Assembly: GCA_964385615.1 (NCBI GenBank)
Contig: CAYLPP010000007.1
Coordinates: 44,426 to 108,425, forward strand
Length of the DNA stretch: 64,000 bases
Reading direction: 5' to 3'
DNA from: an uncultured bacterium
GTDB taxonomy: Bacteria > Omnitrophota > Omnitrophia > Omnitrophales > Aquincolibacteriaceae
Position 1 is the stretch's first letter; each line of letters opens with the position of its first letter. Positions 1,519 through 49,700 of this stretch are shown piece by piece. The position numbers and the translations under genes were made by a program. A model generated the notes under the pieces. That model searched no databases and was not told the origin of the DNA. It worked only from the letters and a program-made list of their open reading frames with translations.

Positions 1519-1525
1519 ATTCACC

Positions 1526-6891: not shown

Positions 6892-6935
6892 GGGGGTGAA
6901 TTATAGCAAAAAAGCGGGGGCCGGCCTACCCTTAA

Positions 6936-11507: not shown

Positions 11508-11635
11508 CTATTTAAAAGTTAACACATTCAGTTCAATTTACAAATTTGGTGCAATTGGGGCATTTGGAGCGCTTTTAAAGAAAAGAAAACGGGCAGAGTA
11601 CGGGCGCGGAATGAAACTGAAATTGAAAGCGAAGA
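11508..11635. promoter_or_regulatory. 128-bp spacer between the 2,650-aa gene stop and the response-regulator start (candidate promoter of the phosphorelay operon)
   Basis: AT-rich stretch (tttaaaagttaacacattcagttcaatttacaaatttggtgcaattgg). No convincing intrinsic terminator hairpin. Confidence 0.25.
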
Positions 11636-19591: not shown

Positions 19592-19749
19592 AGAATCGCC
19601 GTCCACAGCCCTTTATTAAAGGCTTTTATAAAGGTGACTCTAGAAGTATAGCACCCTCTATAGGAATTTTCTAATGACAGGTAGGGCTGTGGAAGGAATG
19701 CTAGTTCTTACTAGAGAATGCTACTTTCCCCTAGGGAGCAATACCAGGC
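19592..19749. promoter_or_regulatory. Palindrome-rich, AT-richer spacer between the two giant genes (candidate promoter/RNA structure)
   Basis: An 11-bp perfect inverted repeat, tccacagccct (19602-19612) / agggctgtgga (19683-19693). Smaller palindromes tatag-N6-ctata (19647-19663), ctagt-N4-actag (19701-19714) and ccctaggg (19729-19736). On the coding strand, TAGAAA-N17-TATACT precedes the RBS region. No U-tract after the giant-gene stop. Confidence 0.3.
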
Positions 19750-28700: not shown

Positions 28701-31700
28701 GCAATTCCATCTCATTGAGCTGGCGGGCACGGGCAGACTGCACTTTGGCCATCTCGCGCTGAGCCGCCGCGTCCTTCCAATGTTTCTGGAAGGTTGTAGT
28801 CACGCTGTTGTAAAAAACGCGATCCCGATGATCATCTGAAAGCAGGTAAGCCCGATTCTGGCGGGCGAAATAAGCGCCCAAGTCAGCCTGGAAGCTGTTG
28901 GAATTCAGGAGCAATGAAAGATCCGTCTGATCAAACCGGGGAGGAAGCCCGATAGAAGTCTGAGTTCCCTGGAAGCTCTGCGCGCGGGACAGCAGGCCGT
29001 TCATCGCGCTCACGGCCGGTGAAGCCAAACCATAACGGCCGGCCGCCGAACAGGACTCGCAGCCTTTTCCATAAAGGGCTTCCACCGCGCGGCGGAGCCG
29101 GTAGCTCATCTGCTGAGACTGTCCGACAGCTTTCATCACTTCGGCCGCTCTGCGGGAATTGGCGGCATGCGTTTCCGCGGTTTCAGTGCCGAGGCGCTGA
29201 TCGCGCTGAGCCGCCGCGAGGTTATAGCTGAGCACGTTAAGCACCGCGTTGTAAGCGGACTGTTCATCCGTGATCGTAAATCCGGTCAGCTGAGTTGAAG
29301 GCGGAAGTCTTCTTCCCCCGCCGAGTGCAACCTGAATATCTTCCATATCTCTTCTCTGATCAAAACCACGGCTCATCTGGGTCACTTCGCCGATCGAAAG
29401 AAGACGCTGAGCAAGATCTCCGGCGCCGTCACCGTCAAAATGGCCTTGTCTTTCAAGATGCAGGGCCGCGGCGATGACCGCTTTACGGATATCATCCTGA
29501 GTCGAAGACGCCGCGTTCACGTTAAAGGCGGAATTGCCGGTAGCCTCATAAAGGGCCTGCAGACCGCTCATCAGATTGGCGGAATAAATGCTTCCTGAAA
29601 GCATGGCCGTAACGAAGCGGTACATGTTGTAGCCCTTCTGGGTCGCGTAGCGGTCGCCGATCACGCCGATCCGCTTGAGCTGGCCCACAAAACCTTCCGC
29701 CTGGGCGCCCAGATTGGAGCTATTGCTCAAATCATCCGCGATCTTTTCAGGATTATTCAAAAGGTTAGCCAGACTCGCGCTGCTCTGCTCTCTCTTTTCC
29801 GTGGAGAGACGGCGGGTTTCACGCGTCGTCAAAATATATTCGCCAAACAGAACCGCCGTCTGCACAAACTGAATCAACAGAGGATTGCGGGTCTGATTGC
29901 CGGAAGTGCGGGCATAAGAGAACGCGCCGTCTTCATAGCCTTCGGATTTCTTGATATTTTCAAGACGGAAAAGACCGTTTCCGGATTCCAGCGCGGATTC
30001 AACGCTAAACACTTCTTCCGCGTTGAACGCTTCAAAAATATCCGCTTTTGAAATCCCCGCCTGCTCCAGTTTGGCCTGCAGAGTCAAAGTGGTCGTACGG
30101 CTTCCGTCGCCCATCTTACTTCCAAAAATCTCATTGATGATATTGCGCACTTCACCGCGGACGAATTCATCCCCCGTCACGCCCTTCTTTCCGCGGGTGA
30201 TTTCGGTATCATTAATTTTGCCTTCTTCCATGTCCGCGATAATTTTGCGGAGCGCGTCAGCCTTGGGCCCATTCTTGGCGTTCTTCTCAAGCAATTTCAC
30301 CAGATTCTTGGTAATCATTTCGTCACGCAGAAGCGTGGTCACGGCAAAGCGCGCGGCATTGGACTGCAGGCTGGCTTCCCGGAATTCAAAGTTCAAAGTC
30401 ATGAGGTCGAGAAGGTTCGGCGCGTTATCCGTCAGGATGGTTTCCTTGCCGGCGATCGCCGTTTCATAGATCTGATTGAATTCTTCGTCAAATCCCTTAT
30501 TGCGGTCCGCTTTGAACAGACGCTCAACCAATTTAATCATATTCTTGATATCCACAACCCGCTGACGGTACAGACTCACGATATTCTGCTGTTCGGGAAC
30601 CGTGGACTGGCCATAAATCTTTTCCGCGGTCGCGGCCTGCGCTTCCGCGTCTTCAAGACGGCGTTCCAGGGTCGTTTTAAAGCTGTCATAGCCGACATCT
30701 CCCGCGGCTTCGCGCAGGCTTTCACGAAGTTTTACCTTATCGGCAAAGAGACGGATCTGACCGCTGTTACTACGGTCACGGCCGAGGGTCTGAGCGATCA
30801 GGCTGGATTCAAACAATGAAATTCCGATACCGATGACATGAGTCGCCACGTCTATTTTTCCGCCGTCCGCGGTATTATCCAGTACGTTCAAACGTTTCAA
30901 GTCGAAGGCTTGGGCGATACGCCGGCTTCCAATCACGATCTGACGTTTACCGCTTCCTGACTTAGCAATCGTGGTGACTTCTTCCGCGCTGCTTCCCAGC
31001 TGGACTTTATTCAGATTAAAGGTTTCGCTCTGACCAGCTTCATCCAAAGCCAATTCTTCGCGAACCGCGCGCTCCACTAATTCCTGCTGTTTCACGCTGT
31101 CCGTGATGAAAACAAAGTTACCGTCACCCTTTTCTCCGCGCAGGATTTCACGAACCGCTTTGCGCATGGTCGTCACAAAGCTTCTTTCACCCGCCGCCGT
31201 TGAGGTATCCATCAGCGTATCGACCTGGAGACGGCCCTTGGAGCGCAGGTAGCGCAAATCCGCCTGACTCTGACCTAACTCAACACGCTCATTGCCGGTG
31301 AAAAGCTTGATGAAATCAGGAAGGGTCGCGGAAACCGCCACAACCCCCTGCATAAACATACGCTGAATCGGAGACCCAATCTTGGTTTCAAGACGTCCGA
31401 TCGTGTCCAGATCGTACCAGGTACGGATTTTGGCCATATCCAGAGAGTTCATCTCCATTTTGCCTTCCGCGGTGAACTTGACACCTTCCATCAGGGTGCC
31501 CGCGTCCACCTGAACACCATCCACGTCCGAGGGTTTGTTGCTCCGATGCGTCCGGCCTTTTTCAGATTCATAGAAGCGGAGCTTGGCAGCCAGATCCGCG
31601 TTGTCACCCACCCGGCGGCCGCCCTTTTCGCCGACCATACGGCGCAAGAAGCTGAAGGTAAAAGCGATTTGAAGCGCGATATCTCCGGACTGCTGATCTT

Positions 31701-34700
31701 CATGGATCGCGTTGCTGTCGGCAGGCTTGAGAACCACTTTGCCGTCCAGCACGGTTTCCTTCATCCGAATGCCTTCCGTGTAGTAGAGACCCGTCAGGAA
31801 TGACTCAAATTCACGGAAAAACTTGAAGCCGAAAGTCGCACCCTCAGCCTTCAACAGCTCAATAGCTTTCTTATTAAAGAGAACCTTACCGTCTTGCGTA
31901 ATATGGAACGCCGCTTGGGAATTCAGGTTTTTGTCATCTTTGAAATCAGCAAATTTCTCGTCGAATTCCTTACCGTCTTCCACTTTCGTCAGCCGTTTTT
32001 CTTCGCCGACCAGTTCCAGAATGCGGTTCATGAATTCAAAACCGTTGCGGATGGTCGCGTCACCGGCAAACTGCGGGCGGGCGCCGTTGGCGATAATGGC
32101 TTTAATCTGCTGATAAGCGGAAATCTGGGCTTCGTCGACGATGGTCCGTGAAAATTTTGAGGCGATCGTTTCCAACAGTTCACGGGCAGCCACATTATCC
32201 CGGTTATTTTCAAGATGCGTCCGGCTGAACACGTCACTGACCAGCACCGCGTTAGGCTTGCTGTTAATCGCGTTTAAGAGGCCCGTAAAATCACTCTTAC
32301 CGTCTTTCAGGAAGGTATTCGCGTCAATGAAATCCACGCCCGCCGCACGGCCAACGACCTGGAAGCTGGCATTCATGTCGCCTTCTTTATGGGTTACATC
32401 TACATACTTAATCGAGCTATCCGGGCTTTCCAAGAGAAGCTGAACGCGTTTGCCCGGGTGATTCGCTTGATAGAAGATAGCGCCCAGAACCTGACCGCGG
32501 GACTTACCGATACCGGTACCGGCGGAAACGTCAAACCCATAATCCACGGCCAGGCCGATCATAAAGTTAGAATCACCGCGGCCGAACAAGTCTGAAGGCG
32601 GACGGTCCGTGCGGTCGCCCCGGCCTTCGCCAAAAACGTTACGCTTAGCTTCAGAACGGTTCAGAGATAATTCATAAATCGTGCCGAGCAGAACATAATT
32701 GAGCAGACGCTTGCTCGCGGACTTAAACCCTTCTGAGTTTTCATGAACTTCCATGGTTCTCTGCAATTCAGCCAGAGCCGGTTTAGCGCCTGAAGCCGCG
32801 GGATCGATCAAATCATTAATCACCGTTTCATTTCCGTCACGCACGGCTTTAGCCAAACGTTCAGCCTGTTCACCGGTCAACTTACCGAAAATATTGAACT
32901 TCGCCGCCAGGTGGAAACCCAGGCTGGCATCCGAAAGATTACCGCGGGCTCCCATCAGAGAATTGAAAATTTCAGTCGCCGCGCGGTTAAATTCAGCCGC
33001 GGCTTCCATTTTTTCGGCGTGAGTCGCGCTTTTGTTATCCAGAACGCTTCTAAACGCTTCAAGCGCGCCGTCGCTTTCCGTCAAACGGGAAACAAACGCG
33101 TCATAAAGTTCGCGGATCTGCTTACCAACCCCTTCCTTCCCTGTCTGCTCAAGAAGGTAGCTGTGCAGGAGGTCGGTCATCAGTTTTTTGGACGGATCCA
33201 CTTTTCCGACCAGCTGGGCCAGATCCGAATAAAGCTCCTTACGGCCCGATTGCCCGTTGGTCAATTCCGATTTGCGCAGACCGATTTCATTCTGCAAATT
33301 CAGCAGCTGTTCACGCAGAATCTGAACCTGCTTCTGTTTCGCTGAGCGTTCAGCATTGTATTCCGCGCGCTGATGGTCGAACCTGAAAACAAACCGCAGG
33401 AGATTCCAAAACCGGTCCGGATTCTTGGATTCGGTTCTCTGCAATTCCGCTTCCGCCTGCTTAACTTCGTTCAGCTTCGCGGCCGCCTGTTCATTCAAAC
33501 GGGCCAGATCCTCATTGGTGCTTTCCCGCGCGTCAAGAGACGCATCTTCGACTTTTTCACTCTTGGCAAGATCAAGCGTATTGATCAGGTTCTCAGCCGC
33601 GGGCTGGAGGCTCTTGTATTCCGCCTCTGAAAGCTTAATCACTACGCGCTCGCCGTTAATCGTGACGCCGAAATAATGATCTCCCTTCCCCGTCTTCGCC
33701 GCTTCAATAATCTGTTCGGCAAACGCGCGGGCCCGGGCTCTTTGTTCCATCTTCTCCTGGGCTTTTTTGTACGCTTGAGATTCTTGTCTGTAGGAAAGCT
33801 TCCCGTCTTTATTTCCGGCTTCAGCCTTAATTTCAGCCAAAACTTCACGCTCAATCTGAGCGTCACTCTTGTAGGCTTCTTTGAAAAGGGCTTCGAGGTA
33901 TTTCGCGCCGGCAGCACCCTGCTTGACCATTGCCGGATCCCCCATCGAGAAGTGTTCCACGCCCGCGCCGGAGTGAAGGGTGAAATGACCGGCTCTTCCG
34001 CCAAGTTCAGGCACAATACCCAGACGCGCGAATTCCGCGTTCAAGGCTTCAAGAGCTTCCACCCCGCGCGCCGCGCCCGTGCATCCCGCCGCGCAAACGA
34101 AGTGATTCGCTTCTTCCCAAAGAAGGAGGGTGTTTGAATCCAAACGCTCAATGCCTCTGAAAACTTCAACCGCGGACTCAATAAAAGCGTCCGCGTTATC
34201 CCGGCCGGCCTCGGTTCTCTCAAAAATCTCGCTTAATTTTTCAAACTGCACCTGGGCTTTGCTTTTCCCCGCAGGCACAGTCACGTCTTTGCCGTAGATC
34301 ACGTCAGCGATATCGATAATGTCTTCCATGCCCAGATTGGCTGAATCCAGCTTCTGAGACAATTTCACGATAATGTCCTGGCTGATATCCGATTCACCGC
34401 CGATTCTCCGGCGGGTTTCTAAATGAATTTCAGCCGTCCGAAGATGGTTCATGGCCGTTTCCATGTGACTGCCGTAAAATTCCGCCATCGTCCGAAGAGC
34501 CCCGCCGTCCGCGGTTGAAATTTCAGACAAGGCGCGCTTGCCCGCGCGGATGGATGAGGCCCAATCCATGGCCGTCTGAATGAATTCCGCCTTAAAGGTC
34601 TCGATATCGGATCCTTTCGCGATCGGCTTACCATTGAAAGAGCCGGATTCCCAGGCTTGTGTCGCGGAAATATCCGCGTAGCGCCCGGCGGCTTCAGTCC

Positions 34701-37700
34701 AGATATCGTTGAAATCGAGAATCAAACCGTCATTATTCCAAAGCTCACTGCGCTTACCGTTTTCACGAATACCCAGAATGTCCGCCAGCGCCTGTTTTTC
34801 AGCGACCTTGCCTCCGCCGAATTTCTGATTGGTGAACGCGCCCAGGTAAATCGCGATAATATCTCCCTTTTCAATTCCCCAGACTTCTTTCACTCCATCC
34901 AGAACATTCTGATTGCGGAAACGGATCTTTTCGCCCGTCTTCGGATTAGTTTTTTCAATCACCAGATTCAAACGTCCCTTGGCCGGGGCTTTTTGCCAGG
35001 TGATCCAGCTCTTCAGAGTTCCGGCAAGGCCCGGACCCGGAAGGTCGACTTCCATCGAATCCTGACGATTACGGAGCGCTGAGATGAAAGCGCCTTCATG
35101 AGAACGGGTGGTCAAAATATGACGGATCAGGTAACTGCGTAAGCGTGATCCGGCGCTGCCCATATCGGAGAAGAAATCTTTCGGACCGGCGGCGGCCTCA
35201 GTGCTTTCAGGAGCTTTTTCCTTACCCGTTGAAGCCTCCGCTTTCGCCGGAGCCTGCTTCGCGGGAGCATTCGCGGCCTGACGAAATACCGGTTCACCTT
35301 CAACAGGTGACGTCGAAGCGGGTTCTTTTCCGCTCATCACGGCATCCACGGCATCTTTAAGTTCACTGCGCCGGCGCGCGATATCCGCTTTCGAACCCGC
35401 GAATTCGGCCCCGCGTCCGACAAACGGCAGACCGCCGGAAAGCCCAGCTTTCGCCGCCGCCTCTTCCTTCGCCGCGAGGCTTTCTTTCGCGTTTGAAAGT
35501 TCACGGGATTTGGCCAGAAGGGCTTCCACTTTTTCCTGAGACAATCCGGCAAGTTTCGCCAGAACATTGATCAGATTCTCACGGGCCTGCTCAATGCGTT
35601 CCGCGCGTTCCTGGCGGGTGCCCGTAGTATCGGCAAGCGCGCGCCGGTAAGCATCCCGAGCCTGGACCGCTATTTCATATTGAGCATCAACACGATTCGT
35701 TCCACCGGCCACATCTGTGGTAGTAGATTCCGTTTCCAGCTGTTTCCAAGCCGCGTCACTCGCGGGAACGTCCTCACCCAGAATTTCTTCTTCAATGACT
35801 TTTCTGGCGGTTTGACCCTGACTGCTCTCCGATTGCTCTTTAACCGCCTGCGGGCTATCCTCTTTCAGCAGAGTCTCAGCACTGCCGGTTTCTCTCAATT
35901 GTTTTGCGATCAGACGGGCCCGCGCGGCTCCCGCGAAATCACCCTGCTGATAACGCTCCGCGGCTTTCGCGTCATACTCATCCGCTAAAATCTTCGCTTC
36001 CGTCCGGCGCTGAAGTTCCTTTGCCTCATTAATCTTTTTCTTCAAGGCGCCTGAAGTCGATTCCGCGGTGTTAGAACTCCAAACCTGGGTATCTTTACCT
36101 TCTTCACGGAAAGGAGCCACGAGACCTTCCGCGACTTCAAGAAGCCGGAGCGCGCCCTCAAGATCTCCGCGGCTGAACGCGTCCCGAGCGGCCTCAAGTT
36201 TTTTCTTGCCGGCGGCTTCCGCTTCAGCGGCAAACTGCTTGCGGAACTGCTTCACACCCATTGAATTTGAAATCGTCATTTCAACGCCGTCAAGACCTGT
36301 CACCTTAATACTGCCCATCTCGCCGATTTCGGCCAGAAGCGCTTCGGCGCTGGTCAGAAGATCCAGGAATTCCTGAAGTCCTTCCTCTTTCCCATTGCCG
36401 GACTTCCACAGTTCCACCGCGCGCTGAAGCTTGGTCTGCGCGTATTCTCTCTTGACGATATCTCCCGATTTCGCCAAATCAACTTCGTAACCCTGAACCT
36501 TGACGCGAGGCTGGCCGTTCTTGGTGCTGACGGCTTCATTCATTAAATCCTGTGCTTCCTTATAGAACTTGAGTTTATCAGCGGAGGTCGTCGCGCTGCG
36601 GGCCTTGGCCAATGCGGCCTGCGCCTGTTCATACTTGGTGACCTGGGTATGCGCGGCTTCATTCTGCTGAACCTTTTCAGACTGGGCCCGGCGGTAAGCG
36701 CCCAAATCGACCGCGTCTTTACCCGGAACTTCGACAGAGTCAAATTTTCCGCCCTGCGCGGCTTCGCCCGCGAGCCTTTCAGCTTCCGCGTATTTCTGCG
36801 CGGCCGTCTGATAGTCACCGGCTTCTTCGGCCTGTTCGGCTTCCTGGCGGAGCTGTTCAGCACGTTTGAAGGAGCTCTCGCTTTTCTGCCGGGCAATTCC
36901 AAGTTCTTTCTGACGGGTCACTTCAGCAACGATCGCTTCACGAGTCACTAAAATTCTTACACCGTTTACCGTTATTTCCACGACTCCGGTCCGGGAAGCC
37001 GCAGATTCAAGGGCTTGAAGCTCAGCCGAAGACTGCTTCTTCAGGTGCTCCGTCGCAAGATCATTGCGCCGGGCGACTTCAGCATCCACCGCTTCTTTGG
37101 AAATAACGACTTCTTCCCCGTTAACCACCCGGCGCGTTTCATTTTTGAATCCGTTGTGAGTGCCAGCGGTTTCCGCTTCATAAGCGGCCATTTCAAGTTC
37201 TTCCGGCGTCATATCCCGAAGAATTTCAGATTCACGGGTCACGACAGGCGCCTTCGCGGATTTCGGAGCCGGCGCGGTTGCCGTTGAAGGCGTTCCTTCC
37301 GGACCATCCACAACCTCGGAACGTTCACCTGAAATCCGGTCACCCTTCGCGGGCTCAACATTGTTCAGTTTGTCGAGAATTTCCTGAGTGGTCATACCGG
37401 TTTCAGCCAGGAATTCAAAAACACCGGACTCATTAAATTTATAAGCCGCCAGGTCGCCGAATTTCTCAATATTGATACCGGCCAATTCCGCGGCCTGCGC
37501 GAAAGTCAGCTGTCCCATTTCACGGACCAGCGCGGCCGCGCTTTTTCCGGGATTTGAAGCGCGATGAATCCGGAAGACAAGAACCATTTCCGCGCCGATC
37601 TGAATGGTTCCGCCGTTTTTAAGTTTGATGGTCAGCGGTCCACGGGTGCCGTTCTGCAGTTCGCGGGCCAAAATCTCAAGTTCCGCATGGGTCATTTTCG

Positions 37701-40700
37701 CAAGCGCTTCAAAACCTTCCCGCACGCCCGCGCCCGCGCGCAGTAATTTAAAAATGTCGTCAGCCTTCACGCCCTGAGCTTCCAGCGTGAAGCGCACTTT
37801 CATGGCGGCTAAACGTTCGGCGGCGTTCAGGTATAAGGCGGCAGGCGTATCTCCGTGAGCGCCAAGAACATCCATGAGGAAGAAAATATCGTAATTCTCA
37901 GCCAAATATTTGGCGACCTGCTCCTGATGATCCAAAGTAGCCGTTTTACGCCGGCCATACTCTGTTTTAACCAGTGAAGAAGGAATCAATTCAAAAACGC
38001 CGGGCTTCGTTTCGACCCAGATCATTTCATGGCCGTCCACGTTTTCACGCGTTCCTTCCGTCAAAGCCTCCTCTAAGGTTTCCGTTGAGCTCTCTAAGAC
38101 AGCCGTTTCTTCCGCGGCCCGGTTCGAACGTGATCTCCAGGACTGGAGTTCAGAAAGAGCCGAAGCTTCATGTCCGGTGGGCGGAGGCAGATTCGCGAGA
38201 TCCGCTTCGCTCATGGAATTCAGACGGTCCAGAGCCGCGCGGTAACGGGCGGCGAACTTTTCATTTTCAGCCCGTGTTTTCTCAGGATTCTGCTGACGGC
38301 GGGCCCGTTCACGGCTGATATCTTCCTTACGGACCTCAATATTTTCTCCGAAATATTTACGGTTAACACCGTCCCGGTCTTTCTGAGAACGCGATTCTTT
38401 TTCCAGGCGGTCCAATTTCCCTTCACTCTGAGTCTCAAGGAAACGGCGGACGCGTTCACGGCGGATCGCTTCACGCGACACCAGCATTCTCTCACCCCGT
38501 GAATTACGCACCCAGACATAACCGTTCGGACCGTCGTGAGCGGGATGAGAATCGATCCGGGTCAGCTCTCCGTGCGACAACTCACCAAGGAATTCTCCCT
38601 GAAGCCGTTCCAATTCCGCTCTCGCGGCTTCTGGAGAAATTTCATAACCTTCAGAAGTCACGTTCTTAGGCCCATCCTTAGTACCGTCGGCAGGTTTCTC
38701 GTTGGCAATCCGGTGAAGTTCAACAAGCCCCGCGTCGCCCCGTTCGGAGGTCCGCCGGGCGGCATCCGCTTCTTTGGCTTTGCGCGCTTCTCTCGCAAGA
38801 TCCTTGGACACGTCAGGATGCTTTCCGCCCTGTTCAATTTCTGAAAGTTCCCGATGCGTCAGGTCCAGAGCGCTCCGGCCTTCGGGACGGCGGGCAATTT
38901 CATCACGGATAGCCTGACGCTGTGCCGGATCCGTCGTTTTATTCAGCAGTTCGAAAAGTTCCGTGGTGTTACGTCCGGCCAGCGCGGCATGCTCATCCGA
39001 AACTTCCGGCGATTCCTTAAATTCCTTGCCGGGCTCAACATTCGCTTCCGCTTCACTGACCGCTTTCTTGGCCATTTGCTTCGGATTCATGTGCTGAGGA
39101 AGCATCATGAAAAGTAAATCCTGCGCGAGCATATGCATCTGCTCTTCACTCAGGTGGGTCCAGCCGATCATGTTCGTAAAGCGCAGAATCGGCATCGTCA
39201 GATTTTCACTCAGTATCGGCATCAATTCCATCACCGCCCATGAAGAGCTCAGGAAATAAGCGGGATTCGTCAGCGGGTTAAGCGCGTGGGCGAGAATATG
39301 GTTATTTCTCATGAACCGGGCAACCGTTGACGGCCGGAGACCGAAGATGCTGAGGAAACTGGTAATACCCACCTCAGAAAAGACCTGAGCGCGTCTCTGC
39401 GTCGCGCCGGCAACGATATTTTCAATCCACTTGGCCGGACCCGCAAGCAGATCCTTAATCAAGCTTTCACCCGTGCTCCCCACTTTTTGCATTCCCGTGT
39501 TTCCGAAGACCGCGAGCGCCGGGCCCATGCGCACGCCCATCCAGAAAGCGCCGACTACGCCTTCACCGGCTTCTTCATCCAATTTTTCATCGCCGTGTTC
39601 AGCCCGCTGTTCACGCATGGACAAATGCGATTTGGAGCCGAACCAGAATGAGCGTTTGAAAGGACTTTCGCCTTTGATCAGGATGCGCATCGCGATATCA
39701 AACTGCGCCCACTGAAGACCGGTAACAATCCCCTTCTCTCCAAAAACCAGCGTGATGTTCCAAAGCTTGGCAAAAAATCCTTTGTACTGACTGCCGAACA
39801 TAAACCGGTGAACCCACAATTCCGCGTCTTTCGCCGCTTCGCGGGACACGAACACCTGAGCGTTTTTAGCGATATTCGAAAAATCCATCCATTTTCCGAA
39901 TCCCTTGGATGGATCCTTGTTAATCAGCGCGAATGCCTTGGTCAGGAAAAGCCTCATCACACCGACACCGAGGATAATCAGACCGAAATAGAAGAACATA
40001 CTGGCCATCGTGCCTTCTTTACTGCTCTTGTATCCGCCCAACAGGTACCCGGTAAGAGTCGCGCCCGCGCCGACACCCAAAATGATGGAGGTCAAAGTAA
40101 CTGAGGCGATCTGGCTCTGAACTTCAGCCTGAAGAGCTCCTTCAATCGGTTTGGGGAACGCGCGGGCCAGAGCCGTATGTATCAAAACCATAATCGCAGC
40201 GGCAATCAGCACGCCAAGCACTGTCGCCGCGATATCACGCATCGCGTCATTGCCTGTGTAACCCGCGTAAAGATAAACACCGAACGCAGTGCCGAGCGCG
40301 AAACTCGATCCAAGAATCTTCACAGCTTGCCCCGTGCGAAGCATGATACCGCCCGCCATGAAACGAAGGGCGATGCTCAGGCCAAAAGCCAGCATCAACC
40401 CAGCGCCCGCGGCTTTTAAGAATTCATTGCCCGTCTTATCGCCATACCAGTAAAGAGCGGTAGAAACCGCGAACCCGCCGGTCAAATACATCATCAGGCG
40501 GAAATTTTGGAGCATGAATTTCTTCGCGCTTTCACGCACGGTTGATAAAACATAGTTCTTAAAGAACGATGACGCGAGACGGCTAAAGATAACCACGCCG
40601 ATAATAACCCCAATCACGACCGCCGTAGCTTCAAGAACACCCCGGACCTGCTCAAAGACCTCCGCGGTAATTCCAAACACATCCAGGATGACACTTTTCA

Positions 40701-43700
40701 CGGCGGCTCCGACAACGCTTGCAATCGATGAAACCAGGGTTATAAAATTCGAAACCGCGGTCACGACTGTCTGCACAATCGGCGCGATAAAGGCCTTATA
40801 CACCTCAACCACGACCCGGCCAACGATATAAGCGGCGACCGCCACTACAGTCACTGCGGCAAGCGCGTAACCCGCCAGTGAAACCAGTGAAACGATTTTG
40901 CTGATCAAAGTCTTAGCATGCCAATTGGCGAAACCAAGACCGGTCAAAAAGTTGGAAGAAGCCGCGAGACGGTTCATCAAATTTCCGAAAGAACCTTTCA
41001 GGAAATTCCGGTATTGAATGCGCCAGAAAGCGGCGGTATGCAGAAGCGAGCGCTGAACCGCTTTCGGCAGGAAAACCCAGACGCCGGCCAGCGGTGAAAG
41101 CACAACCTGGCCTACCCCATAAACCAGCTGAACCGCGCCGAGCGCGATCGAACGCGCCACCCCGGCAAACCCTGTCCCCAGGCCGACTACAATGTTCCGG
41201 ATGCCGGTCGCGAAAATTTGAGCGCCGGTCGCATTGGCGCCCGCGTGGAAAAGAAGTTTACCGACGGCGGAAGTTCCAACCCCCCTGACCATAACTCCTG
41301 TGAAAGCCGCTCTCAGAATAAACGCGGACCCGATAATCAGGAACGCGGCCAGCCCGATGCCTTTAAGGATGTCACTATCCAGGAGATGACCGATAACGGC
41401 CACCGCGAGCGCGGCCGTAAGACTCGCCGCCCAGGCGTTTCGGACAAGGAAAGCTCCAACGTGGTAAACCGCGAAAACAGGCGCCGTCACCAGCACAGCG
41501 AAAACGCGTCCAATCACGCTCTTGGGCACCCATCCGCCGAACAGGAGTTTCATAAAACCATTTTGAGCGGCGAATTTTTGAAGCGGCAAAATAACATTTT
41601 TGAAAATCCAGGTGCCAATAACTTTCAAGACCGCCAGGGCGCGGGTACCGAGGGCGACCATGGCCGGAATGATTCTGGGGCCCAGGATCACCAACGCGAC
41701 CGTGATAAAAATCTGAGTTAACCCGACAAGCAGGGGCGGTACCAAAACCGCGGTCATGGCAATAAAGGAGCTGATCCGGAAAACACTGCCGAGAATCGAA
41801 GTAAACGCGGCGGTCGGCGCCCATCCTGTGAAAAAGATGGCCATATAGCTCTTCAGCAGGTCCTTAACTCCCACTGGGAACGTCGTGGTAAACACTTCAA
41901 CCGCGAACGCGGCAATCACGCGCGCCGCCCCAACAATCGCCCGGATAACAAAAGGCGCCGCGACAACCAAAAGGACGGCAACCGCGACCGCGGCTAAAAC
42001 GGCAACCGCGACCCCCACGGTTCCGGCAATCGCGAAGAAGACACCGACCGAGACTGCCGTGATTACACTTATCGTCGCGACAAAGGCGGTCACGATTAAA
42101 ATCTGTGTCACCAAACCGTGCGCCGCGAAACCCGTAAAGAACGTGTTAAAGAACTTAAGTGCCGTATTTTTAAAGAACGTGGCAATTTTCGTTACGGCAA
42201 AAATAGCGGCGTTCAGCAGCTGCATTCCGCCGTTAGCCGCCATAAGAGCAAGACCGGCGATCACCTGCCCGAAACCGTAGAAAATTTGCACAAGAGCCAT
42301 TCCGACACTCTTGACGCTGCCCCAGATCGCCGTTTGGAAGACAGCCTTGAAAACCGTAACGACTCCCCTTACCGCCATCGCCGCCATGGCAGTGATGGCC
42401 GCGGGAATTTTAACGAAAATAAACCGGAGAGCCGCGCCGACGTTAAACATGACAATCGACGTGGCTGAAAGCATGGCCAGGAAGAGGCCGTCCACAAACG
42501 CCGAGGCTTTATCCTTTTCATTTCCAGTCGCCAGACTGAACCCGCTTCCAAAAATCTCAAAAGGCACCAGAAGAATTCCACCGACCATCTGAACGCCCAT
42601 GACCACGTATTTACCAATGGAGGTTTCCGCGATGCTCGAGAGAAGGCCTTTCAGGCCTGTCACTTCGAGAACCACGATAAGCGCCGCTACAAACAACCTG
42701 GCGATCCCTGACACAAGATTTTTAACGAAACGGCCGAAGGCATTATCGAGGACCGATTCATAAAGCATGCCGGTCACAAAACCCGCGGTATAAAGAATCG
42801 TTCCTATAATGGCCGCCTTGGCCACAAAAGTCAGCTGAGCCACAATAATCGCGCTGGCCAACTGCGCCGCGGTCAAACTCGCCACAGCACCCGTCGCGCC
42901 GGAAGCCGCGCCCGCGGCAGCAGCACTGCCGCCGCCGCCCAAACCACCGCCCGCCGTTAACTGCGCCGCCGCCGCAATAATACCGATCGCCATGACGGCA
43001 ACACCAATCGCCTTGATCGTATCGCTGCCCACCGCGTAACCAATTCCGACAATCGCCAAACCCACCAGGACAAAAAACGCGGCGCCGGCTAACACAGCGG
43101 CCGTCACGCTAGTCGTCGCGATTCCCAACCCCGCGAGAATCGCCGTTCCGACACCCGCGGTGAAAACCGTAATCGCGATCACAAGCGCGATCACTAAAAC
43201 AACCGCCGCGACCTTCGCGATCACCGGCAAACTGCTCCACCATGTTTTGAAGTCGGTCACGATAATCTGAGCGACGCTCGTCTTGGAGTATTGGCTCATC
43301 TGCATGACACCGCGCGCATCCGCCGTGAAACCTTTCGACTCCAGCTCCGTACTGGCGCCAAAAATCCACTTAGAAACAAAACGGTCTTCCGACTTGCTCT
43401 TGACGGTACCGTCGGCTTTGTAAGTCCAGGTCATACGGGTTTCGTCGCTGGGCTTGCCGATGCGGATATCAATCAGGCGGCCGAATTTATCCACCTGAAT
43501 ATAGGTGCGGTCCGTTTCATCCTGCTTGTACTGATTGATTTTCATGGCATCAACCAGATTTCCGTCTTTATCAAACGTAAACGAGTGCGTCTGGCCCGGC
43601 ATCCGTTTAACGTCAGCCATGTCAATTTCCCCATGACCGCGGACCGTGAATCTCCTGACCGTGCCGGGCCGGTTCAAATAAAATTCAATACTGCTGAAAC

Positions 43701-46700
43701 GCTTGCCGATCTGAGAATCAGAATTAAACAGAGCCACATACGACATAACAGGCACATGATCACCATTCGGCAGACGGTCATACTGACTCTGAAACTTCAC
43801 AAGCATGGTGGCGCCCATTTTCCGCTCTTCTTCATTGGCCGGAGTGTGCAAAGGCACCATTTCAACCGCGTCTTGTTCAGAAAAGCTGACTTTGGCTTTG
43901 GATCCGTCAAACACATACTGTTCACCCAGATGGTTGTTGAACAGAACCGGCTTTTCGACCTTATGCATCTGGTCGTCTTTGGCCAGCCAGTATTCAAAGT
44001 GAATCAATTTATTATTTTTATCGCGGATGGTGTTCCTCATGGTTTTTTCATCCCAGCTGACACCGATAAACGAGGTGTGATAAGTTTCTCTAGATGAAAC
44101 GGAACCATCCACATGGTAGACATTTTCTTTGTAAATCTTGGACGTTTCGTCGCGCGCTCCACGGGTGTAGGTAAGATCACCCTTGCCGGTCATGGCGAAA
44201 TACTGATCACCAACCTTATAGAAGACGGAATTTTCAATATCTACTTTGTTGTGAGCGTCTTGAGCCGACTCCATATAACTGCGCGCTCTCGAAAAACCAA
44301 CCGTGTCGTCACCAAAGGCGAAATAGGCCGTGGGAGAAATGACAGCCAGCAGAATATTTTTAGCGGTCGAATTCGTTCTTTCTTTATCGATATCCTTAAG
44401 CTTCGTGCCTTCGATTACTTTTCCGTCTTTATCCACAACCTTCTGGACGCCGCCGCCGTGCATACTGACATAAATCGCGCCATCCTTATTTCCGCCTTCA
44501 GGAAGCCTGCGGATGACTCTTCCCTTGTCATAATCACGTGTGTCGGCCGTGTAAACTCGTTTATCCCCATCACCCGTATACCGGGTGATGACCCGGCCTG
44601 AAGAATCGAGCGCGATCGTTTCGCCGTTTACTTTAATTTTCTGGGAGGTAAAGACCCCATTATCGCCGGCTTCGATTTTCGCGTTGCTGTCCGTCAAAGC
44701 CGTCCAGAAAGTCATGTCTTTAGGACCGCCTCTGTTAAAGTGCGACTCCCCATCGTCTTCCGGTTTTTCAATTTTGGCGCAGAAGCCCGTGCACCGGCCG
44801 ATCACAAAGTTTCCGCTCAAATCGCTGACAATATATTCACCTGAGGTCGAAGGAATCCCCTGATTTTCACCCGCCCAGATCATGCGGTTGTTTGCATAAT
44901 CCCTGATATGGGTGGCCCAACCGCCGGCAAGAGGCTGACGGAAATTTCCATTGAAGAAACTCTGCATATTCGCTTCCGTGAACCGCGGGTTTACGGCTTG
45001 GCGCCAGGCAGCGACAAACCGGCCATTGTGGAAATACCCGGTCAGTACAGATCCGTCTGACATCACGCTTGCGAAATTTGTAATCTGATTCGAGGCGCCG
45101 CCCAGGAAATTTTTATTCGCCGCGTCGAAGTAAACAATGTTCCCATTATTTCCCAACTGGCCCAAGTACTTCCCGCTGATCATGGATTTCACATAAAACC
45201 CGCTGACCATGATGGAACTTCCGCCATCCGTGCGGTCCTGACCTGTCTGATAAATCCGGGAATTCGCGTGATCATTAACATCCATGGAATACTGCACTCT
45301 GCCGTTCTTATCGGTAAACCAGGAAGTGATCAGGTCGTAGCCTTCTTTTGAATTCCCATTAAGCTTAATGCTGTGCTTAACCCCTTTTTCATCCGTCAAT
45401 TCAATGAAAGCATTGCCTTTTACCCATAAGGAGTTACTCTCACCCGCGGACGGCAGTTTAAAGACTCCATCTTCACGGTATCCCGTAATCTTGTGCGTAT
45501 CCTGATCTTCGATCAGGTATTTGTTTCCCGCAACCTGGGAACCGCCTTGATCATTTCGAAAACTATCCATGACCCGGTAAATCTGGCGAGTCTCATGGTT
45601 AACAACATTCAAGGCGTACCTGGTCCCAAGCCCTTGCTCAGGAGATTCAAAAATGCGGGCCGTCACGATAAATCCGGCTTCGTTGACCATCACATCCACG
45701 GCCTGACCGCTTCCGGTGTGGGTATAGGCCGCGTAAGGATGACTGACTCCTTCACTTGAAGCATGACGTCCGCCGACGTGCTGGAGCGGAGCAATCGGTT
45801 TACCCCACCCCTGATTAACACCAATCACCCGGCCGCCGTTCAATTCCGCGACCAAAGCTTCCCGCAGTTTGCCGCTGCCGACCCCAGAAGCTGAAAGGTA
45901 AACACGGCCGGAAGAATAATCCGTCAGGTTGGTCAGCATCACACCGTCGCGGGAATACCCCATCAAATCTCCGCTGGAGGTCAGGTACATTTTGTACTTG
46001 CCCTTATCGGTTTCATCCGTGCTGGTGAACTCGATAGTATGCCCAATCATTAACAGTTCGGGCAGACCGTCAAGCTCTGAATACCCCCCGCGGAATTTGT
46101 CACTATTCAATGAAGTGTAAGTCTCATCGCCCGGAAGACGGATTCCCGTAATTTTTCCCGTGTAAAGATCGCGGACAACCACTTGTTTCGCGAACCTCGC
46201 GACTCCGCCGTTATTTTGATGCGCGGGAAGTTTCTGATGGATATCGTAAATAACCCCATTCGTGTAGTCCGTCGCGCCCATAATGGGCACCACACCTCTA
46301 TCATTCTTATCTTCTTTTCCGTAAGCACCGACCAAACGGTTATCATCGTCAAAGTAGAAAATGGCCGTTCCCGCGGCAGAAGCGCCTTTAACCGTCATGC
46401 CGGTTACAGCCTTATCGGTCCCAATGGCACCCGGGACTTGATTCCCCTGAGCATCCAGTAAGTACCGCATGGTGAAGTTCGAGATCGGGTTCTTCGGATC
46501 CGAATTACTGGCGCTGAAGGAATAAAAGACACCGTCTTTAATCACACCTTCGTACTGGAAGCTGTCGCCGATACGTACCGGGCGGATCCCTTCAATCTGC
46601 TTGCCGTCCGGGGTAATCATCATGTAGACCCGGCCGGTTTTATAGTCGGTCATGTTTGAGAGGAATGTGGTTGAGCGGTCACGGCCCTGGAGCATTTCAC

Positions 46701-49700
46701 CCATGACATAGCCGTTTTCATCCAGATACGTCGTCACATACCGTCCGCTGTCGCCGTCTCTTCCGCGTTCCCGACTGACATAAAAGGAACTTGCCGTCAG
46801 ACCATTCGCGCCGGGAATCTGCGCGTACTGCGCGTTGGTGCCGGTAAACAGCCGAAGCGCCGCGAAGCCGTCCGTTTGATTCCAGGTACCGATCATCCGG
46901 CCAGGATCCGTCATATCGGCAACACCGACATTCCAGCCGGTCATCCCTCCGCGCTGACCGAACATCAGAATTCTTTGGTTCGCGTTGTCATAGACATTGC
47001 CCAGAATTACTTTATTTTCCGTCTGAGCGTCACGGGTCATGACAAACCGGCCCGCTTCATCAAAGTAAAGAAGGCGGTCATTGACTTTGTCTCCGAAAGG
47101 CTTGTCCGTCTGGTAATAACTCATGGCGCTCATTTCATATTCGGTGCTCACACCGCCGGCGTCAGGATGGGGCGTTGGACCGGTATGACGGGCGCCATCC
47201 ATATAGAACCTCCCGCGTTCATCTAATTTTTCCCGCAGAGGGTTAAGCAATCTCTGGCCGGCAGGATCCACGTAGTTAAAAACCGTGTTTGTATCGTAGC
47301 TGAAAATTTTCCGGACACTGTCATTACGCTTATAGTCGCCTTCACCGACAACCAAAAGCCGGTTTTGATTGTCTAAAATCAAATACTCAGAGCCGGGAGT
47401 TCCCCCAATGCCGTCGTGAACCAGTTCCAGGAAAGTAACACCCGTATAGCCGTGGCGCCCGCGAAGCATAGGCTGAAGCATGTCATTAATGACTGGGCAA
47501 AGTTTGTCGTCACCGAAACGCTTGTCAAGAGCCAGAGGAACACGGGCTCCGTAAATATCATCACGGTAAACTCCCTCACTGCGGCGAACTCTGACGCCGG
47601 CCTGAAGCGCGATTCCGGTAATCTCACCAGTCACCATACTCTTCACCTGGATCGCGAAACCGTTGGTATCTCCATAAGGCTGATACAAGGTCTTGGTCGT
47701 ATAGTTGGCACCGTAGGTAATCTTGGCGTTTTTAATGACTGCGGCGAGAGCCTTGGCATCACCCTTCGCGGCGGTAAACCCGGCCGTAAACGCTTTCCCG
47801 GCCAGAGAGACCCGGTTCTGCTTATCAAGCGTGATGAACTCCGTCTCACCCTTGCCGCCCGGAATCACACGGCGGAACGATCTCACGCTTTCAACAACGA
47901 CGGCAGGATGGTTCTTATCTTTTGATTTGCGTTCGGCCTCCTTCGAATCCACTTTCTCTTCAACCAGTTTCGCGCCGGTATACGCGTCAACCGCCGTCAC
48001 AAAATCACCGGAAGACAATTCGAATTGAAGCAAAATGCCCTGCGAACCCTGCGCCAGCGACCACTGCTTATTCGCGCTGATATTCAGGGCCCAAGTAATC
48101 TTGTTGTTTGGTTTGGCCGCGAAGAAATTCTGACTCGTCCCGGCCAGCACCTGGCGGTTGAGCGCGTCCAGACCGATAAATTGGCCTTCATATTCATAAA
48201 TGGTGGCCGGACCCACGAAAACTTCCCCTGAAGACGGATTGGCGGAAAAGCGTCCGGTCACTTTTTTACCGAGTTCGTTATAAACATCCGTAAAAGAACC
48301 GGTGGAAATCTTGGAAGAAATGAACAGTTTGTCAGCGTTTTGGGCCGCGGACCACTGCTGATCCGTCTTGTAATTGGCCGCGTAAGAGACTCTCAAAGAG
48401 GTTTTAAAATCACCGGTACCCCGAAGCACGACACGGTCTTCGGCATCCAGCGCGATGAATTCATTTTCCAGAGTCGACGGATTTTTACGGATGAAAACAA
48501 TCCGGCTTTCCGTTTTAATATCTCCGCGTTTGATATCTTTCGCGGTATCATCCGTTACGGTTCTATCGGGCGCTTTGCCGGTATGCGCGTCGAGCATATT
48601 CACGCGCAGACCCGAGTCCATGTTCGTTATCTTCATAAATCCGCCGATCGCGGACCCGGAAATTCTCTTTTCATAATCCGCGAAATACGTCAGGCTGAAA
48701 GCCGGTAATTCCTGCTTCTTCAAATCACCGTTACCAATCGCGAGCACCCGGAACTTTGTATCCAGGACCAAAAACTCTCCGGTCTCAATATCATCGCCGA
48801 CCGGGATTCTCCGGACGGTCTGAACCGTTTCATCTTTTTTACCCAGCTCCATGTCGCCGACCTTCAGATTCTGATCGGTTCCAATAGTCAGGCTCGTTCC
48901 GCGCTGAGCATCGTAGACGCCGAAGCGCAAGCCGGTGTCCATATGACTCATCATCAGGAAACCGCTGCTCTGAATCCGGTTCCATTCGACACCCGTTTCG
49001 AAATTGGCGGCAAAATCAATAAAGAAGTTCTTCGTTCCGGGCCGGAGATAATCCCCCTGACCTGACAGCACGGTGCGGTTCTGCGCGTCCAGGGCCACGA
49101 ACTCGCTGGTTCCGTCAAGACCGACACGGGCGTAAACCGCGGTGCTCTTGGTTGAAATCCCGTTGGTTCCGAAAGAAATATTCTGTTCAGCCTTGTCCGT
49201 CTTGGGCTTAATTTCCGTTCCGCGCTGAGCGTCATACATACCCTTGAATTCCCCGGTCGAATTCGTCACCGCGCGCAGAATTCCGCGTTTGTCACGTGAC
49301 CACATCATGTTAACCATCGGGTCAAAGTTGACCGCGAAGGTGATCATCGCGTTGACATCCGTGCCCAGCTTCGTCCAATCCCCGTTACCGCTCATGACGA
49401 CTTCATTATTCGCGTCCAGCGCGATGAAGGTCTGAGACCCGTCATGACCTTTAGTCACATACACAACGGAGGATTTGGTTTTAATGTCTCCCTTGCTGAC
49501 ATTTTTAGTCGAAGCATTATCAATCTTTTCAAGTTCACTGCCGGTGCGGGAGCTGAAGATTCCTTTAAATTCACCGGTCTGCATGGAAACGGCTTTCAGG
49601 AAACCATCCGCCGCCGCGCTCCAGGTCATTTTCGTCGCGTAGTTGGCCGCGTAAGTAATATTAAACATGGGAGCCGTGGGCTTCGTAAAATCACCCGTTC

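What the first reader, a model, noticed from the sequence alone, without database searches (positions are those of the whole stretch)
39100..43230. About 1,380 aa of nearly continuous transmembrane helices inside the giant protein
Dozens of consecutive hydrophobic helices rich in A/V/I/L/G are separated by very short loops, and no soluble domain interrupts them. This exceeds the membrane domain of any characterised transporter. The block lies between an extracytoplasmic-looking beta-repeat/YD region and a coiled-coil plus NTPase region. That placement would fit a very large channel or translocon-like conduit, or a membrane-remodelling anchor. No family is recognisable by eye.
Basis: seen in the sequence. 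Interest (0 to 1): 0.8.

Follow-up and report, generated by a model that had tools for sequence, protein, structure and literature searches.

The report
Orphan ~30-helix membrane block in giant protein
A roughly 1,100-residue stretch of an Omnitrophota giant protein (at least 14,745 aa) is made almost entirely of membrane-helix-like segments with no detectable relative anywhere, and it is most likely the membrane anchor already described in general terms for such giant proteins.

Summary
The window holds a giant minus-strand ORF (19750..63987, 14,745 aa, cut at its 5' end). Residues 6926-8022 (nt 39922..43212) form a 1,097-aa hydrophobic block. It has 27 Kyte-Doolittle segments and 30 'certain' TopPred-style segments, 23 of which score above anything in the ~13,000 soluble residues. 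Hydrophobic moments are low, and charge-free runs reach 70 aa. The last ~275 aa of the flagged range are not TM-like.

Nothing recognisable was found. Pfam, NCBIfam, PHROGs and PDB gave no hit. Neither did 5.8 billion clustered proteins, 1.84 billion representatives, phages, plasmids, GTDB genomes or JGI metagenomes. There is no internal repeat. AlphaFold2 gave pLDDT 41.

MiaB places the window in Omnitrophota, where giant ORFs with many predicted TM helices are already published (42 in the V. archaeovorus ORF; mean 22 for proteins of 10 kAA or more; up to 331). Piezo has 38 TM helices, so "exceeds any characterised membrane domain" fails.

The best reading is a polytopic inner-membrane anchor of an orphan giant envelope protein. 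Topology and any channel role are unresolved. The flanking "YD" and "NTPase" calls were not confirmed. Two oddities remain: the helices are Ala/Val/Gly-rich and Leu-poor, and there is no clear positive-inside bias.

The parts
19750..63987 (-). Giant ORF, 14,745 aa within the window, 5'-truncated by the window end
   Evidence: single ORF with no in-frame stop up to base 64000. No Pfam domain except a PDZ. No internal repeats.
39922..43212 (-). Hydrophobic block, aa 6926-8022: about 23-33 TM-helix-like segments. This is the real core of the finding.
   Evidence: No homologue in any collection searched.
39100..39921 (-). Juxtamembrane region, aa 8023-8296. Mixed composition (28 K/R, 25 D/E) with 2-3 marginal hydrophobic segments. 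It lies in the flagged range but is not TM-like.
42850..42963 (-). Gly/Ala low-complexity linker inside the block (aa 7009-7046, QLTAGGGLGGGGSAAAAGAASGATGAVAS...). More likely a flexible loop than a helix.
   Evidence: The TopPred-style score of 1.44 comes only from the Ala content.
41506..41646 (-). Basic, aromatic-rich loop 1 inside the block (aa 7448-7494; 7 K/R, 0 D/E)
40894..41064 (-). Basic, aromatic-rich loop 2 inside the block (aa 7642-7698; 8 K/R, 0 D/E)
27466..28428 (-). Second, small hydrophobic cluster of the same protein (aa 11854-12174, 4-6 TM-like segments)
30748..32529 (-). Candidate P-loop / SF2-like region (aa 10487-11080). By eye: GTGIGKS, IVDEAQ, SAT, FVFITDSVKQQELV. Not confirmed.
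   Evidence: Searches show the motifs. Negative or non-significant results.
63118..63282 (-). PDZ domain (aa ~236-290), the only Pfam match in the giant protein
   Evidence: PDZ_6 at 27.0 bits (cut-off 27), PDZ at 23.9 bits (cut-off 23.2). Also.
11636..19606 (-). Downstream 2,656-aa ORF, 143 nt after the giant gene. It has a signal-peptide-like N-terminus and 4 TM segments (aa 1346-1527), and no Pfam family.
   Evidence: Weak N-terminal relatives in two Omnitrophota loci.

Best explanation
The block is a polytopic alpha-helical inner-membrane domain of roughly 23-33 helices in ~1,100 aa. It serves as the main membrane anchor of a sequence-orphan giant envelope protein of an Omnitrophota bacterium.

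Mechanism, inferred: as the ribosome reaches codon ~6926, the hydrophobic segments are captured by SRP and inserted co-translationally through SecYEG/YidC. This fixes the giant polypeptide in the cytoplasmic membrane. It also separates a polar N-terminal part of at least 6,900 aa, which carries paired cysteines, from a charged, largely alpha-helical C-terminal part of 6,700 aa. That C-terminal part re-enters the membrane once more at aa 11854-12174.

The very small-residue-rich (Ala/Gly/Val) helices would pack tightly into a large, inert, load-bearing raft. They do not look like a substrate pathway.

Shown: the hydrophobic, non-amphipathic, helix-length character of the segments; the absence of any known family or repeat; the Omnitrophota origin.
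Inferred: actual membrane insertion, the anchor role, and which side faces out.
For: - Hydrophobicity is far beyond anything else in the same protein. Hydrophobic moments are low. Charge-free runs have TM length.
- Density is ~36 aa per helix, as in compact polytopic proteins.
- The flanks differ in composition. The N part is 43.6% N/Q/S/T/G/Y/D, holds 24 of the protein's 31 Cys (22 of them as 11 pairs 3-10 residues apart), and has a PDZ domain. The C part is 44.3% E/K/R/L/A and has a heptad signal at aa 9000-10500.
- MiaB in the window is 59-66% identical to Omnitrophota MAGs.
- Giant Omnitrophota ORFs are published as poorly conserved and domain-poor, with many predicted TM helices read as membrane anchors: 42 TM in the 39,678-aa V. 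archaeovorus ORF (PMC10066038); 'numerous transmembrane regions' and 'transmembrane anchor domains' (10.1101/2023.11.21.568195); mean 22.2 TM helices at 10 kAA or more, with 94% membrane-targeted (10.64898/2026.06.07.730766).
- There are no conserved polar or charged intramembrane signatures, no transporter family hit and no internal duplication.
Against: - No trained TM predictor could be run.
- AF2 gave only pLDDT 40.8, so no fold is known.
- Straightforward segmentations show no positive-inside bias: K+R of 28 vs 30, 31 vs 32 and 31 vs 34 on alternate sides. A bias of 44 vs 17 appears only after picking among 1,024 subsets. A normal polytopic protein usually shows this bias clearly.
- Several predicted helices are separated by only 1-3 residues, and three charge-free runs are 63-70 aa long. 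This is unusual for canonical helix-loop-helix topology.
- Thirty helices are far more than anchoring needs.
- Segment composition differs strongly from ordinary Omnitrophota TM segments: A+G+V 48% vs 30%, Leu 12.5% vs 21%.
- No expression evidence exists.
Confidence: 0.6

Rival explanations
1. Self-export conduit. The block forms a dedicated channel or insertase that, driven by a downstream divergent SecA-like ATPase in the same polypeptide, helps move the giant extracytoplasmic part (or partner proteins such as the adjacent 2,656-aa secreted protein) across the inner membrane.
For: - West-Roberts et al. propose that SecA-like domains next to TM regions export the giant protein itself.
- By eye, aa 10487-11080 carry SF2/SecA-like motifs in the right order.
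- DDX1, DDX41 and UvsW appear among the top Foldseek hits at probability 0.4-0.6.
- The helix count is far above what an anchor needs.
- The gene immediately downstream encodes a signal-peptide protein.
Against: - Pfam SecA_DEAD, DEAD and Helicase_C are not detected even at E<=10.
- PDB phmmer finds nothing.
- The AF2 model has pLDDT 37.9 and no Foldseek hit is below E=0.39.
- Walker A matches are at chance level.
- The candidate motor lies about 2,500 aa from the block.
- The N-terminal part is synthesised before the block, so the block cannot be its co-translational channel.
- No polar pore-lining pattern is seen.
Confidence: 0.13
2. Prey-directed membrane-insertion module. The hydrophobic, Ala/Gly/Val-rich block is delivered into the membrane of a host or prey cell, like the hydrophobic translocation regions of large toxins. 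There it forms a pore or an anchor during episymbiotic or predatory attachment.
For: - Composition is atypical and fusion-peptide-like, unlike resident TM helices of Omnitrophota.
- There is no clear positive-inside bias.
- Omnitrophota giant ORFs have been proposed to act in attachment and predation, and comparable ORFs in Patescibacteria and Nanohaloarchaeota have been proposed to form pores (PMC10066038).
Against: - About 1,100 aa of uninterrupted hydrophobic sequence in mid-protein would be captured by SRP and inserted into the producer's own membrane.
- No chaperone, cocoon (Rhs/YD) or secretion-system gene is detected nearby.
- No similarity to any toxin translocation domain was found.
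Confidence: 0.07
3. Membrane-shaping scaffold. Over-long hydrophobic hairpins wedge into one leaflet, as in reticulons or oleosins, and bend or organise the membrane beneath a giant surface coat.
For: - Some hydrophobic runs are too long for one pass and lack polar turns: 29-33 aa four times, 40 aa once, 63-70 aa three times.
- The two basic, aromatic-rich loops look interfacial.
- No positive-inside alternation is seen.
Against: Of 24 charge-free runs of 15 aa or more, 16 are 16-26 aa, i.e. ordinary single-pass length. No homology to any membrane-shaping family. No structural evidence.
Confidence: 0.05
4. Not a functional membrane domain. The region is a rapidly drifting, compositionally biased hydrophobic filler in a giant ORF that may be poorly expressed or not expressed at all.
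For: - Total absence of homologues for three separately queried regions of the protein, in several very large collections.
- Low-complexity tracts such as VGVAVAVLAAVAVAVLLVVAA and GGGLGGGGSAAAAGAAS.
- AF2 finds no confident fold.
Against: - An open frame of 44 kb with 1,377 stop-free codons in the flagged part cannot be chance. For random sequence the probability is about (61/64)^1377, roughly 1e-29 (inference).
- No tandem DNA repeats that would indicate slippage.
- Segment lengths and loop charges look organised in the C-terminal two thirds of the block.
- Peptides from the V. archaeovorus giant ORF have been detected (PMC10066038).
Confidence: 0.07

Closest known systems
Giant ORF of Velamenicoccus archaeovorus LiM (39,678 aa, 42 predicted TM helices) and other Omnitrophota giant ORFs (Seymour et al. 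2023, PMC10066038)
   Same: Same phylum. Giant single ORF with few or no annotated domains, poorly conserved, with many predicted TM helices.
   Different: No detectable sequence similarity. Here about 30 helices are packed into one contiguous 1,100-aa block of a 14.7-kAA protein. That is roughly 2 helices per 1,000 aa overall, against about 1 per 1,000 aa in the V. archaeovorus ORF.
Archaeovorin-type and Dockerin-type giant proteins (West-Roberts et al. 2023, bioRxiv 10.1101/2023.11.21.568195)
   Same: Architecture of a large, presumably extracellular N-terminal part, then TM anchor helices, then a C-terminal intracellular part. The TM regions were left unannotated and excluded from structure prediction.
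   Different: None of their hallmark domains is detected here by Pfam: SecA_DEAD, SecA preprotein-binding, dockerin, TSP3, C39 or S8 peptidase, discoidin. No type II secretion genes lie next to the gene in the 19 kb downstream.
Catalogue of 916 long Omnitrophota proteins with DeepTMHMM topology (Nielsen & Lui 2026, bioRxiv 10.64898/2026.06.07.730766)
   Same: Proteins of 10 kAA or more with a mean of 22 (median 16) TM helices. 94% are membrane-targeted, and 'TM-only' and 'SP+TM' classes are read as inner-membrane-anchored.
   Different: That catalogue reports TM residues at about 2% of length. Here it is about 4-5% and concentrated in one block. I could not compare sequences with that catalogue.
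Piezo mechanosensitive channels (38 TM helices per subunit; PMC10095409)
   Same: A characterised protein with a comparable or larger number of TM helices in one chain.
   Different: No sequence similarity. Piezo is built from repeated 4-TM units separated by sizeable loops, whereas no internal repeat is detectable here. Piezo is eukaryotic.

Membership tests
Omnitrophota giant membrane-anchored proteins (descriptive class; Seymour 2023, West-Roberts 2023, Nielsen & Lui 2026) | Encoded in an Omnitrophota genome | tested here: met
   The window's MiaB is 55-66% identical to MiaB of dozens of Omnitrophota MAGs, and at most 38% identical to other phyla. yjeF-MiaB synteny is shared.
Omnitrophota giant membrane-anchored proteins (descriptive class; Seymour 2023, West-Roberts 2023, Nielsen & Lui 2026) | Single ORF longer than 10,000 aa | tested here: met
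   14,745 aa within the window, 5'-truncated.
Omnitrophota giant membrane-anchored proteins (descriptive class; Seymour 2023, West-Roberts 2023, Nielsen & Lui 2026) | Numerous predicted TM helices | tested here: met
   27-33 segments in block 1 and 4-6 in block 2, by three scale-based methods. DeepTMHMM was not available.
Archaeovorin / Dockerin-type giant proteins (West-Roberts 2023) | Divergent SecA_DEAD / SecA preprotein-binding domain after the TM anchor | tested here: inconclusive
   Motifs are visible by eye at aa 10487-11080. Against this: no Pfam hit at E<=10, no PDB sequence hit, no homologues, AF2 pLDDT of 37.9 with best Foldseek E=0.39, and Smith-Waterman z of 2-2.6.
Archaeovorin / Dockerin-type giant proteins (West-Roberts 2023) | Hallmark domains (dockerin/TSP3, discoidin, C39 or S8 peptidase, glycolytic-enzyme-like domains) | tested here: not met
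   Pfam scans of the whole protein in chunks of 1,000 aa or less returned only a PDZ domain.
Archaeovorin / Dockerin-type giant proteins (West-Roberts 2023) | Sequence homology to a published member | tested here: not met
   Zero hits for aa 6900-8296, 9800-11800 and 10440-11120 among 5.8 billion clusters. Zero hits for aa 6900-8099 among 1.84 billion representatives. The N-terminal 6,900 aa were not searched.
   No hit at E<=1 for the chunk aa 6951-7925. No NCBIfam or PHROGs hit. No PDB hit.
   BLASTP self-comparison found nothing. The best Smith-Waterman pair has z=4.8 (aa 7225-7327 vs 7612-7729), marginal after 28 tests. Halves give z of 2-2.9.
Rhs / YD-repeat proteins (for the N-terminal flank) | Multiple YD repeats (Pfam RHS_repeat) forming a shell | tested here: not met
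   No RHS_repeat hit, even for aa 6400-6920 at E<=10. Only 4 loose YD-like motifs occur in 14,745 aa.
Reticulon/oleosin-like membrane-shaping hairpins | Hydrophobic segments of ~30-35 aa (or ~70 aa with a central knot) that do not span the bilayer | tested here: inconclusive
   Distribution of the 24 charge-free runs of 15 aa or more: 16 runs of 16-26 aa, 4 of 29-33, 1 of 40 and 3 of 63-70. Sidedness is not testable in silico here.

The most novel reading that the evidence does not exclude
The block is an autonomous, family-less membrane machine of 30 or more helices. It is built from unusually Ala/Val/Gly-rich helices without canonical positive-inside topology. It would work either as a self-translocon coupled to a cryptic ATPase in the same polypeptide or as a module that inserts into a prey cell's membrane. 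Either way it would be a new class of very large membrane domain specific to giant proteins of episymbiotic bacteria.
Probability: 0.12. Interest if true: 0.75.

Novelty: new member of a known kind. Interest (0 to 1): 0.35.

Why it matters
Giant ORFs take up several percent of the small genomes of Omnitrophota, yet their functions are unknown. The published studies deliberately skipped the TM regions, because predictors disagreed and the regions were excluded from structure prediction. This window offers a clean example: one compact block of about 30 helices, no repeats and no homologues. On this example, the membrane topology of a giant protein could be mapped experimentally (which 6-7 kAA half is outside?). 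That is the key unknown for every proposed function, whether coat, adhesin or predation device. As it stands, the finding adds one orphan member and two small oddities (helix composition, missing positive-inside bias). It does not establish a new principle.

Tried and rejected
1. Homology searches, all empty:
- The search for homologous proteins with aa 6900-8296, 9800-11800 and 10440-11120.
- phmmer of aa 6900-8099 against 1.84 billion representatives.
- tblastn against phages and plasmids.
- GTDB genome contigs.
- JGI metagenome contigs with two different segments.
- PDB sequences.

2. Family libraries. Pfam was run on the whole protein in chunks of 4,915, ~1,000 and 200-700 aa. NCBIfam and PHROGs were run on aa 5001-14745. 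The only hit was a PDZ domain.

3. Exact-sequence look-up of the window's MiaB found nothing on record, so the source genome is not in that collection.

4. Synteny. tblastn of all window proteins against 74 Omnitrophota MiaB loci found no giant-gene relative. A 15-TM, 2,038-aa ORF in L050 is unrelated.

5. Structure. The AF2 single-sequence model of the block has pLDDT 40.8. It was judged meaningless and not fold-searched. The AF2 model of the candidate ATPase has pLDDT 37.9 and its Foldseek search against PDB was non-significant.

6. SecA hypothesis. No SecA gene in the loci could be used to build a profile. The hypothesis is kept only as an unconfirmed lead.

7. Small-xxx-small and GxxxG packing motifs are not enriched over shuffles.

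8. Positive-inside topology assignment gave no unique solution.

9. RNA and repeat checks of the window found no Rfam family, no tRNA and one trivial tandem repeat.

Full report
**What is in the window.** One minus-strand ORF runs from 63987 down to 19750, giving 14,745 aa. There is no in-frame stop between its first possible start codon and the end of the window, so the gene is cut at its 5' end and the protein is longer still. In this report, aa number = (63987-nt)//3+1. The flagged range 39100-43230 is therefore aa 6920-8296.

**Checking the observation.**
- Per 200 aa, the mean Kyte-Doolittle value rises from about -0.4 to between +1.1 and +1.4 across aa ~6900-8000. Charged residues fall to 6-9%.
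- Greedy picking of non-overlapping 19-mers with KD>1.6 gives 27 segments between aa 6926 and 8015. The other ~13,600 residues give none, apart from 5 in a second small cluster at aa 11854-12172.
- A dynamic-programming segmentation gives 31 segments in aa 6926-8022.
- My implementation of the TopPred procedure (GES scale, trapezoid window) gives 30 'certain' and 3 'putative' segments. Of these, 23 score >=1.45, above the best score in the soluble parts (1.42).
- On Eisenberg's criteria, 32 of 36 candidate segments fall in TM classes and their hydrophobic moments are low. They are not amphipathic surface helices.
- There are 20 charge-free runs of at least 18 aa. Seven are at least 30 aa and the longest is 70 aa.
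- At the DNA level, the block shows as an AT-skew excursion on the + strand.

So the hydrophobic block is real and far beyond chance. It is, however, 1,097 aa long (nt 39922..43212), not ~1,380 aa. The last 274 residues of the flagged range (aa 8023-8296) carry 28 K/R and 25 D/E and only two or three marginal hydrophobic segments. The block is also not wholly continuous. It contains a 38-aa Gly/Ala low-complexity linker (aa 7009-7046) and two loops of 47 and 57 aa with 7 and 8 K/R and no acidic residue. All these calls come from scale-based scripts of my own. No trained topology predictor was available.

**What it is not.**
- It does not resolve into a known family. Pfam finds nothing at E<=1 in the chunk covering aa 6951-7925. 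NCBIfam, PHROGs and PDB sequences also find nothing.
- It has no detectable relative in any collection I could search: 5.8 billion protein clusters, a filter-free phmmer run against 1.84 billion representatives, phage and plasmid records, one genome per GTDB species and JGI metagenome contigs.
- It is not a tandem array. BLASTP self-comparison is empty. The best Smith-Waterman pair among 28 has z=4.8 and the halves give z of 2-2.9.
- AlphaFold2 without an alignment gave an all-helical model with mean pLDDT 40.8, which cannot be interpreted.

**The rest of the protein.** The whole giant protein is almost completely dark.
- Scans in chunks of 1,000 aa or less give a single PDZ domain at aa ~236-290.
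- There are no internal repeats.
- Two further regions (aa 9800-11800 and aa 10440-11120) have no homologues.
- The 'NTPase' rests on two Walker-A matches where about 1.8 are expected by chance (the expectation is computed from composition).
- By eye, aa 10487-11080 carry SF2/SecA-like motifs in order: GTGIGKS, IVDEAQ, SAT, FVFITDSVKQQELV.
- No test supports that reading. Pfam at E<=10 finds nothing, and PDB phmmer finds nothing. The AF2 model has pLDDT 37.9. Foldseek gives nothing better than E=0.39, with a few DEAD-box helicases at probability 0.4-0.6. I keep this only as an unconfirmed lead.
- A heptad (3.5-residue) periodicity is enriched at aa 9000-10500, not directly after the block.

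**Context.** The window's MiaB is 55-66% identical to MiaB of many Omnitrophota MAGs and at most 38% identical to other phyla, so the organism is an Omnitrophota bacterium without a close sequenced relative. Downstream of the giant gene, on the same strand, lie:
- a 2,656-aa ORF with a signal-peptide-like N-terminus and four TM segments;
- a response regulator and a CHASE-PAS hybrid histidine kinase;
- MiaB and a YjeF_N epimerase;
- a double sulfotransferase, a beta-barrel porin and a Wza-like polysaccharide exporter.

No secretion-system genes were seen. None of the 74 Omnitrophota MiaB loci carries a relative of the giant gene.

**Comparison with what is known.** Giant ORFs are a published hallmark of Omnitrophota.
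[quoted passage not shown] They report 42 predicted TM helices for the 39,678-aa V. archaeovorus ORF (PMC10066038).
[quoted passage not shown] They describe 'transmembrane anchor domains' followed by SecA-related domains. They also note that TMHMM and DeepTMHMM disagree, and they excluded TM regions from structure prediction.
- Nielsen and Lui report a mean of 22.2 (median 16) TM helices for proteins of at least 10 kAA. They find 94% membrane-targeted and up to 331 TM helices in one chain.
- Piezo channels have 38 TM helices per subunit (PMC10095409).

The claim that this block exceeds any characterised membrane domain therefore does not hold. At ~36 aa per helix its density is that of ordinary compact transporters (own knowledge). 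The specific points here are that about 30 helices sit in one contiguous block, and that neither the block nor the other two regions searched has a detectable relative.

**Most likely mechanism.** I read the block as the main polytopic inner-membrane anchor of an orphan giant envelope protein, inserted co-translationally by SRP/SecYEG/YidC. This step is inferred from the established biology of hydrophobic nascent chains. The block separates two compositionally different halves:
- The N part is 43.6% N/Q/S/T/G/Y/D.
- The C part is 44.3% E/K/R/L/A.

Which half faces outward is not settled.
- The paired cysteines (see Oddities) and the PDZ domain hint that the N part is extracytoplasmic.
- The best-scoring positive-inside solutions instead put the N-terminal side of the block in the cytoplasm. 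Those solutions are cherry-picked from 1,024 combinations. Straightforward segmentations show no bias at all: 28 vs 30, 31 vs 32 and 31 vs 34 K+R.

**Oddities that remain unexplained.**
- The hydrophobic segments are Ala/Val/Gly-rich and Leu-poor compared with 414 TM-like segments from Omnitrophota loci: A+G+V 48% vs 30%, Leu 12.5% vs 21%. In 5,000 bootstrap samples none reached these values. The other membrane proteins in the same window have ordinary Leu-rich helices. The higher G+C of the giant gene may contribute.
- Several helices are separated by only 1-3 residues, and three charge-free runs are 63-70 aa long.
- The positive-inside rule is not evident.
- Cysteines pair up. Of 31 Cys in the protein, 29 have another within 11 residues, against 1.3 expected (maximum 10 in 5,000 permutations). 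Eleven pairs lie in the N part and none in the block.

These points keep alive, at low probability, the readings as self-translocon, prey-membrane insertion module or membrane-shaping scaffold.

**Verdict.** Novelty: a new, sequence-orphan member of a known kind (TM-rich giant proteins of Omnitrophota). Interest is moderate to low (0.35). A specialist would not be surprised by many TM helices in such a protein. The compact, repeat-free block could still be a convenient handle for settling giant-protein topology experimentally.

Noticed in passing
window 19750-63987 (-), whole giant protein: Cysteines come almost only in close pairs. Of 31 Cys, 29 have a partner within 11 residues (Cx2-10C), against 1.3 expected by permutation. 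Eleven pairs lie in the N-terminal 6,400 aa, none in the TM block, and there are CxxxC, CxxC and CxxCxxxxC groups in the C part. This suggests short disulfide loops or metal sites and could indicate which half is extracytoplasmic.
   Followed up: partly
window 39922-43212 (-): The hydrophobic segments of the block are Ala/Val/Gly-rich and Leu-poor compared with 414 TM-like segments from Omnitrophota loci (A+G+V 48% vs 30%, Leu 12.5% vs 21%). The TM helices of the neighbouring histidine kinase and of the 2,656-aa protein in the same window are ordinary Leu-rich helices.
   Followed up: partly
window 19750-63987 (-): A protein of 14,745 aa with no internal repeat detectable by BLASTP at E<=1e-3. 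It has only one Pfam domain (PDZ, aa ~236-290; nt 63118-63282). Most very long bacterial proteins are repeat arrays, so this is unusual.
   Followed up: partly
window 27466-28428 (-): A second cluster of 4-6 TM-like segments at aa 11854-12174, about 3,800 aa after the main block. The chain therefore returns to the membrane, and the last ~2,570 aa may lie on either side.
   Followed up: no
window 30748-32529 (-): By eye, ordered SF2/SecA-like motifs are present: SAGTGIGKS, IVDEAQ, SAT, FVFITDSVKQQELVERAV, ESSLIAQTLGRDRSNSG. Pfam, PDB phmmer, AF2 (pLDDT 38) and Foldseek give no significant support. DEAD-box helicases appear only at probability 0.4-0.6.
   Followed up: yes
window 11636-19606 (-): A 2,656-aa ORF lies 143 nt downstream of the giant gene. 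It has a signal-peptide-like N-terminus (MEIKKNLYFKSIALATLVCFSGSTVSA), four central TM segments and no Pfam family. Its first ~480 aa have weak relatives (23-33% identity) in Omnitrophota loci L015 and L040.
   Followed up: partly
window 892-4581 (-): An envelope-polysaccharide gene set lies at the low end of the window: a Wza-like Poly_export/SLBB protein, a PEP-CTERM-associated beta-barrel porin (BBP2_2) and a 567-aa protein with two sulfotransferase domains. This hints at a sulfated exopolysaccharide.
   Followed up: partly
window 6936-11507 (-): A hybrid histidine kinase (7 TM segments, CHASE, two PAS, HisKA, HATPase_c, receiver) and an HTH_17-receiver response regulator sit between the giant-gene pair and MiaB. 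They might regulate those genes.
   Followed up: no
window 20001-44000 vs 1-12000: The giant gene is about 4 points richer in G+C (0.52-0.56) than the housekeeping genes at 1-12 kb (0.48-0.50).
   Followed up: no
window ~62780-62810 (-), aa ~393-400: A run of at least eight glycines (GNGGGGGGGG) follows the PDZ-containing N-terminal region. It is probably a flexible hinge.
   Followed up: no
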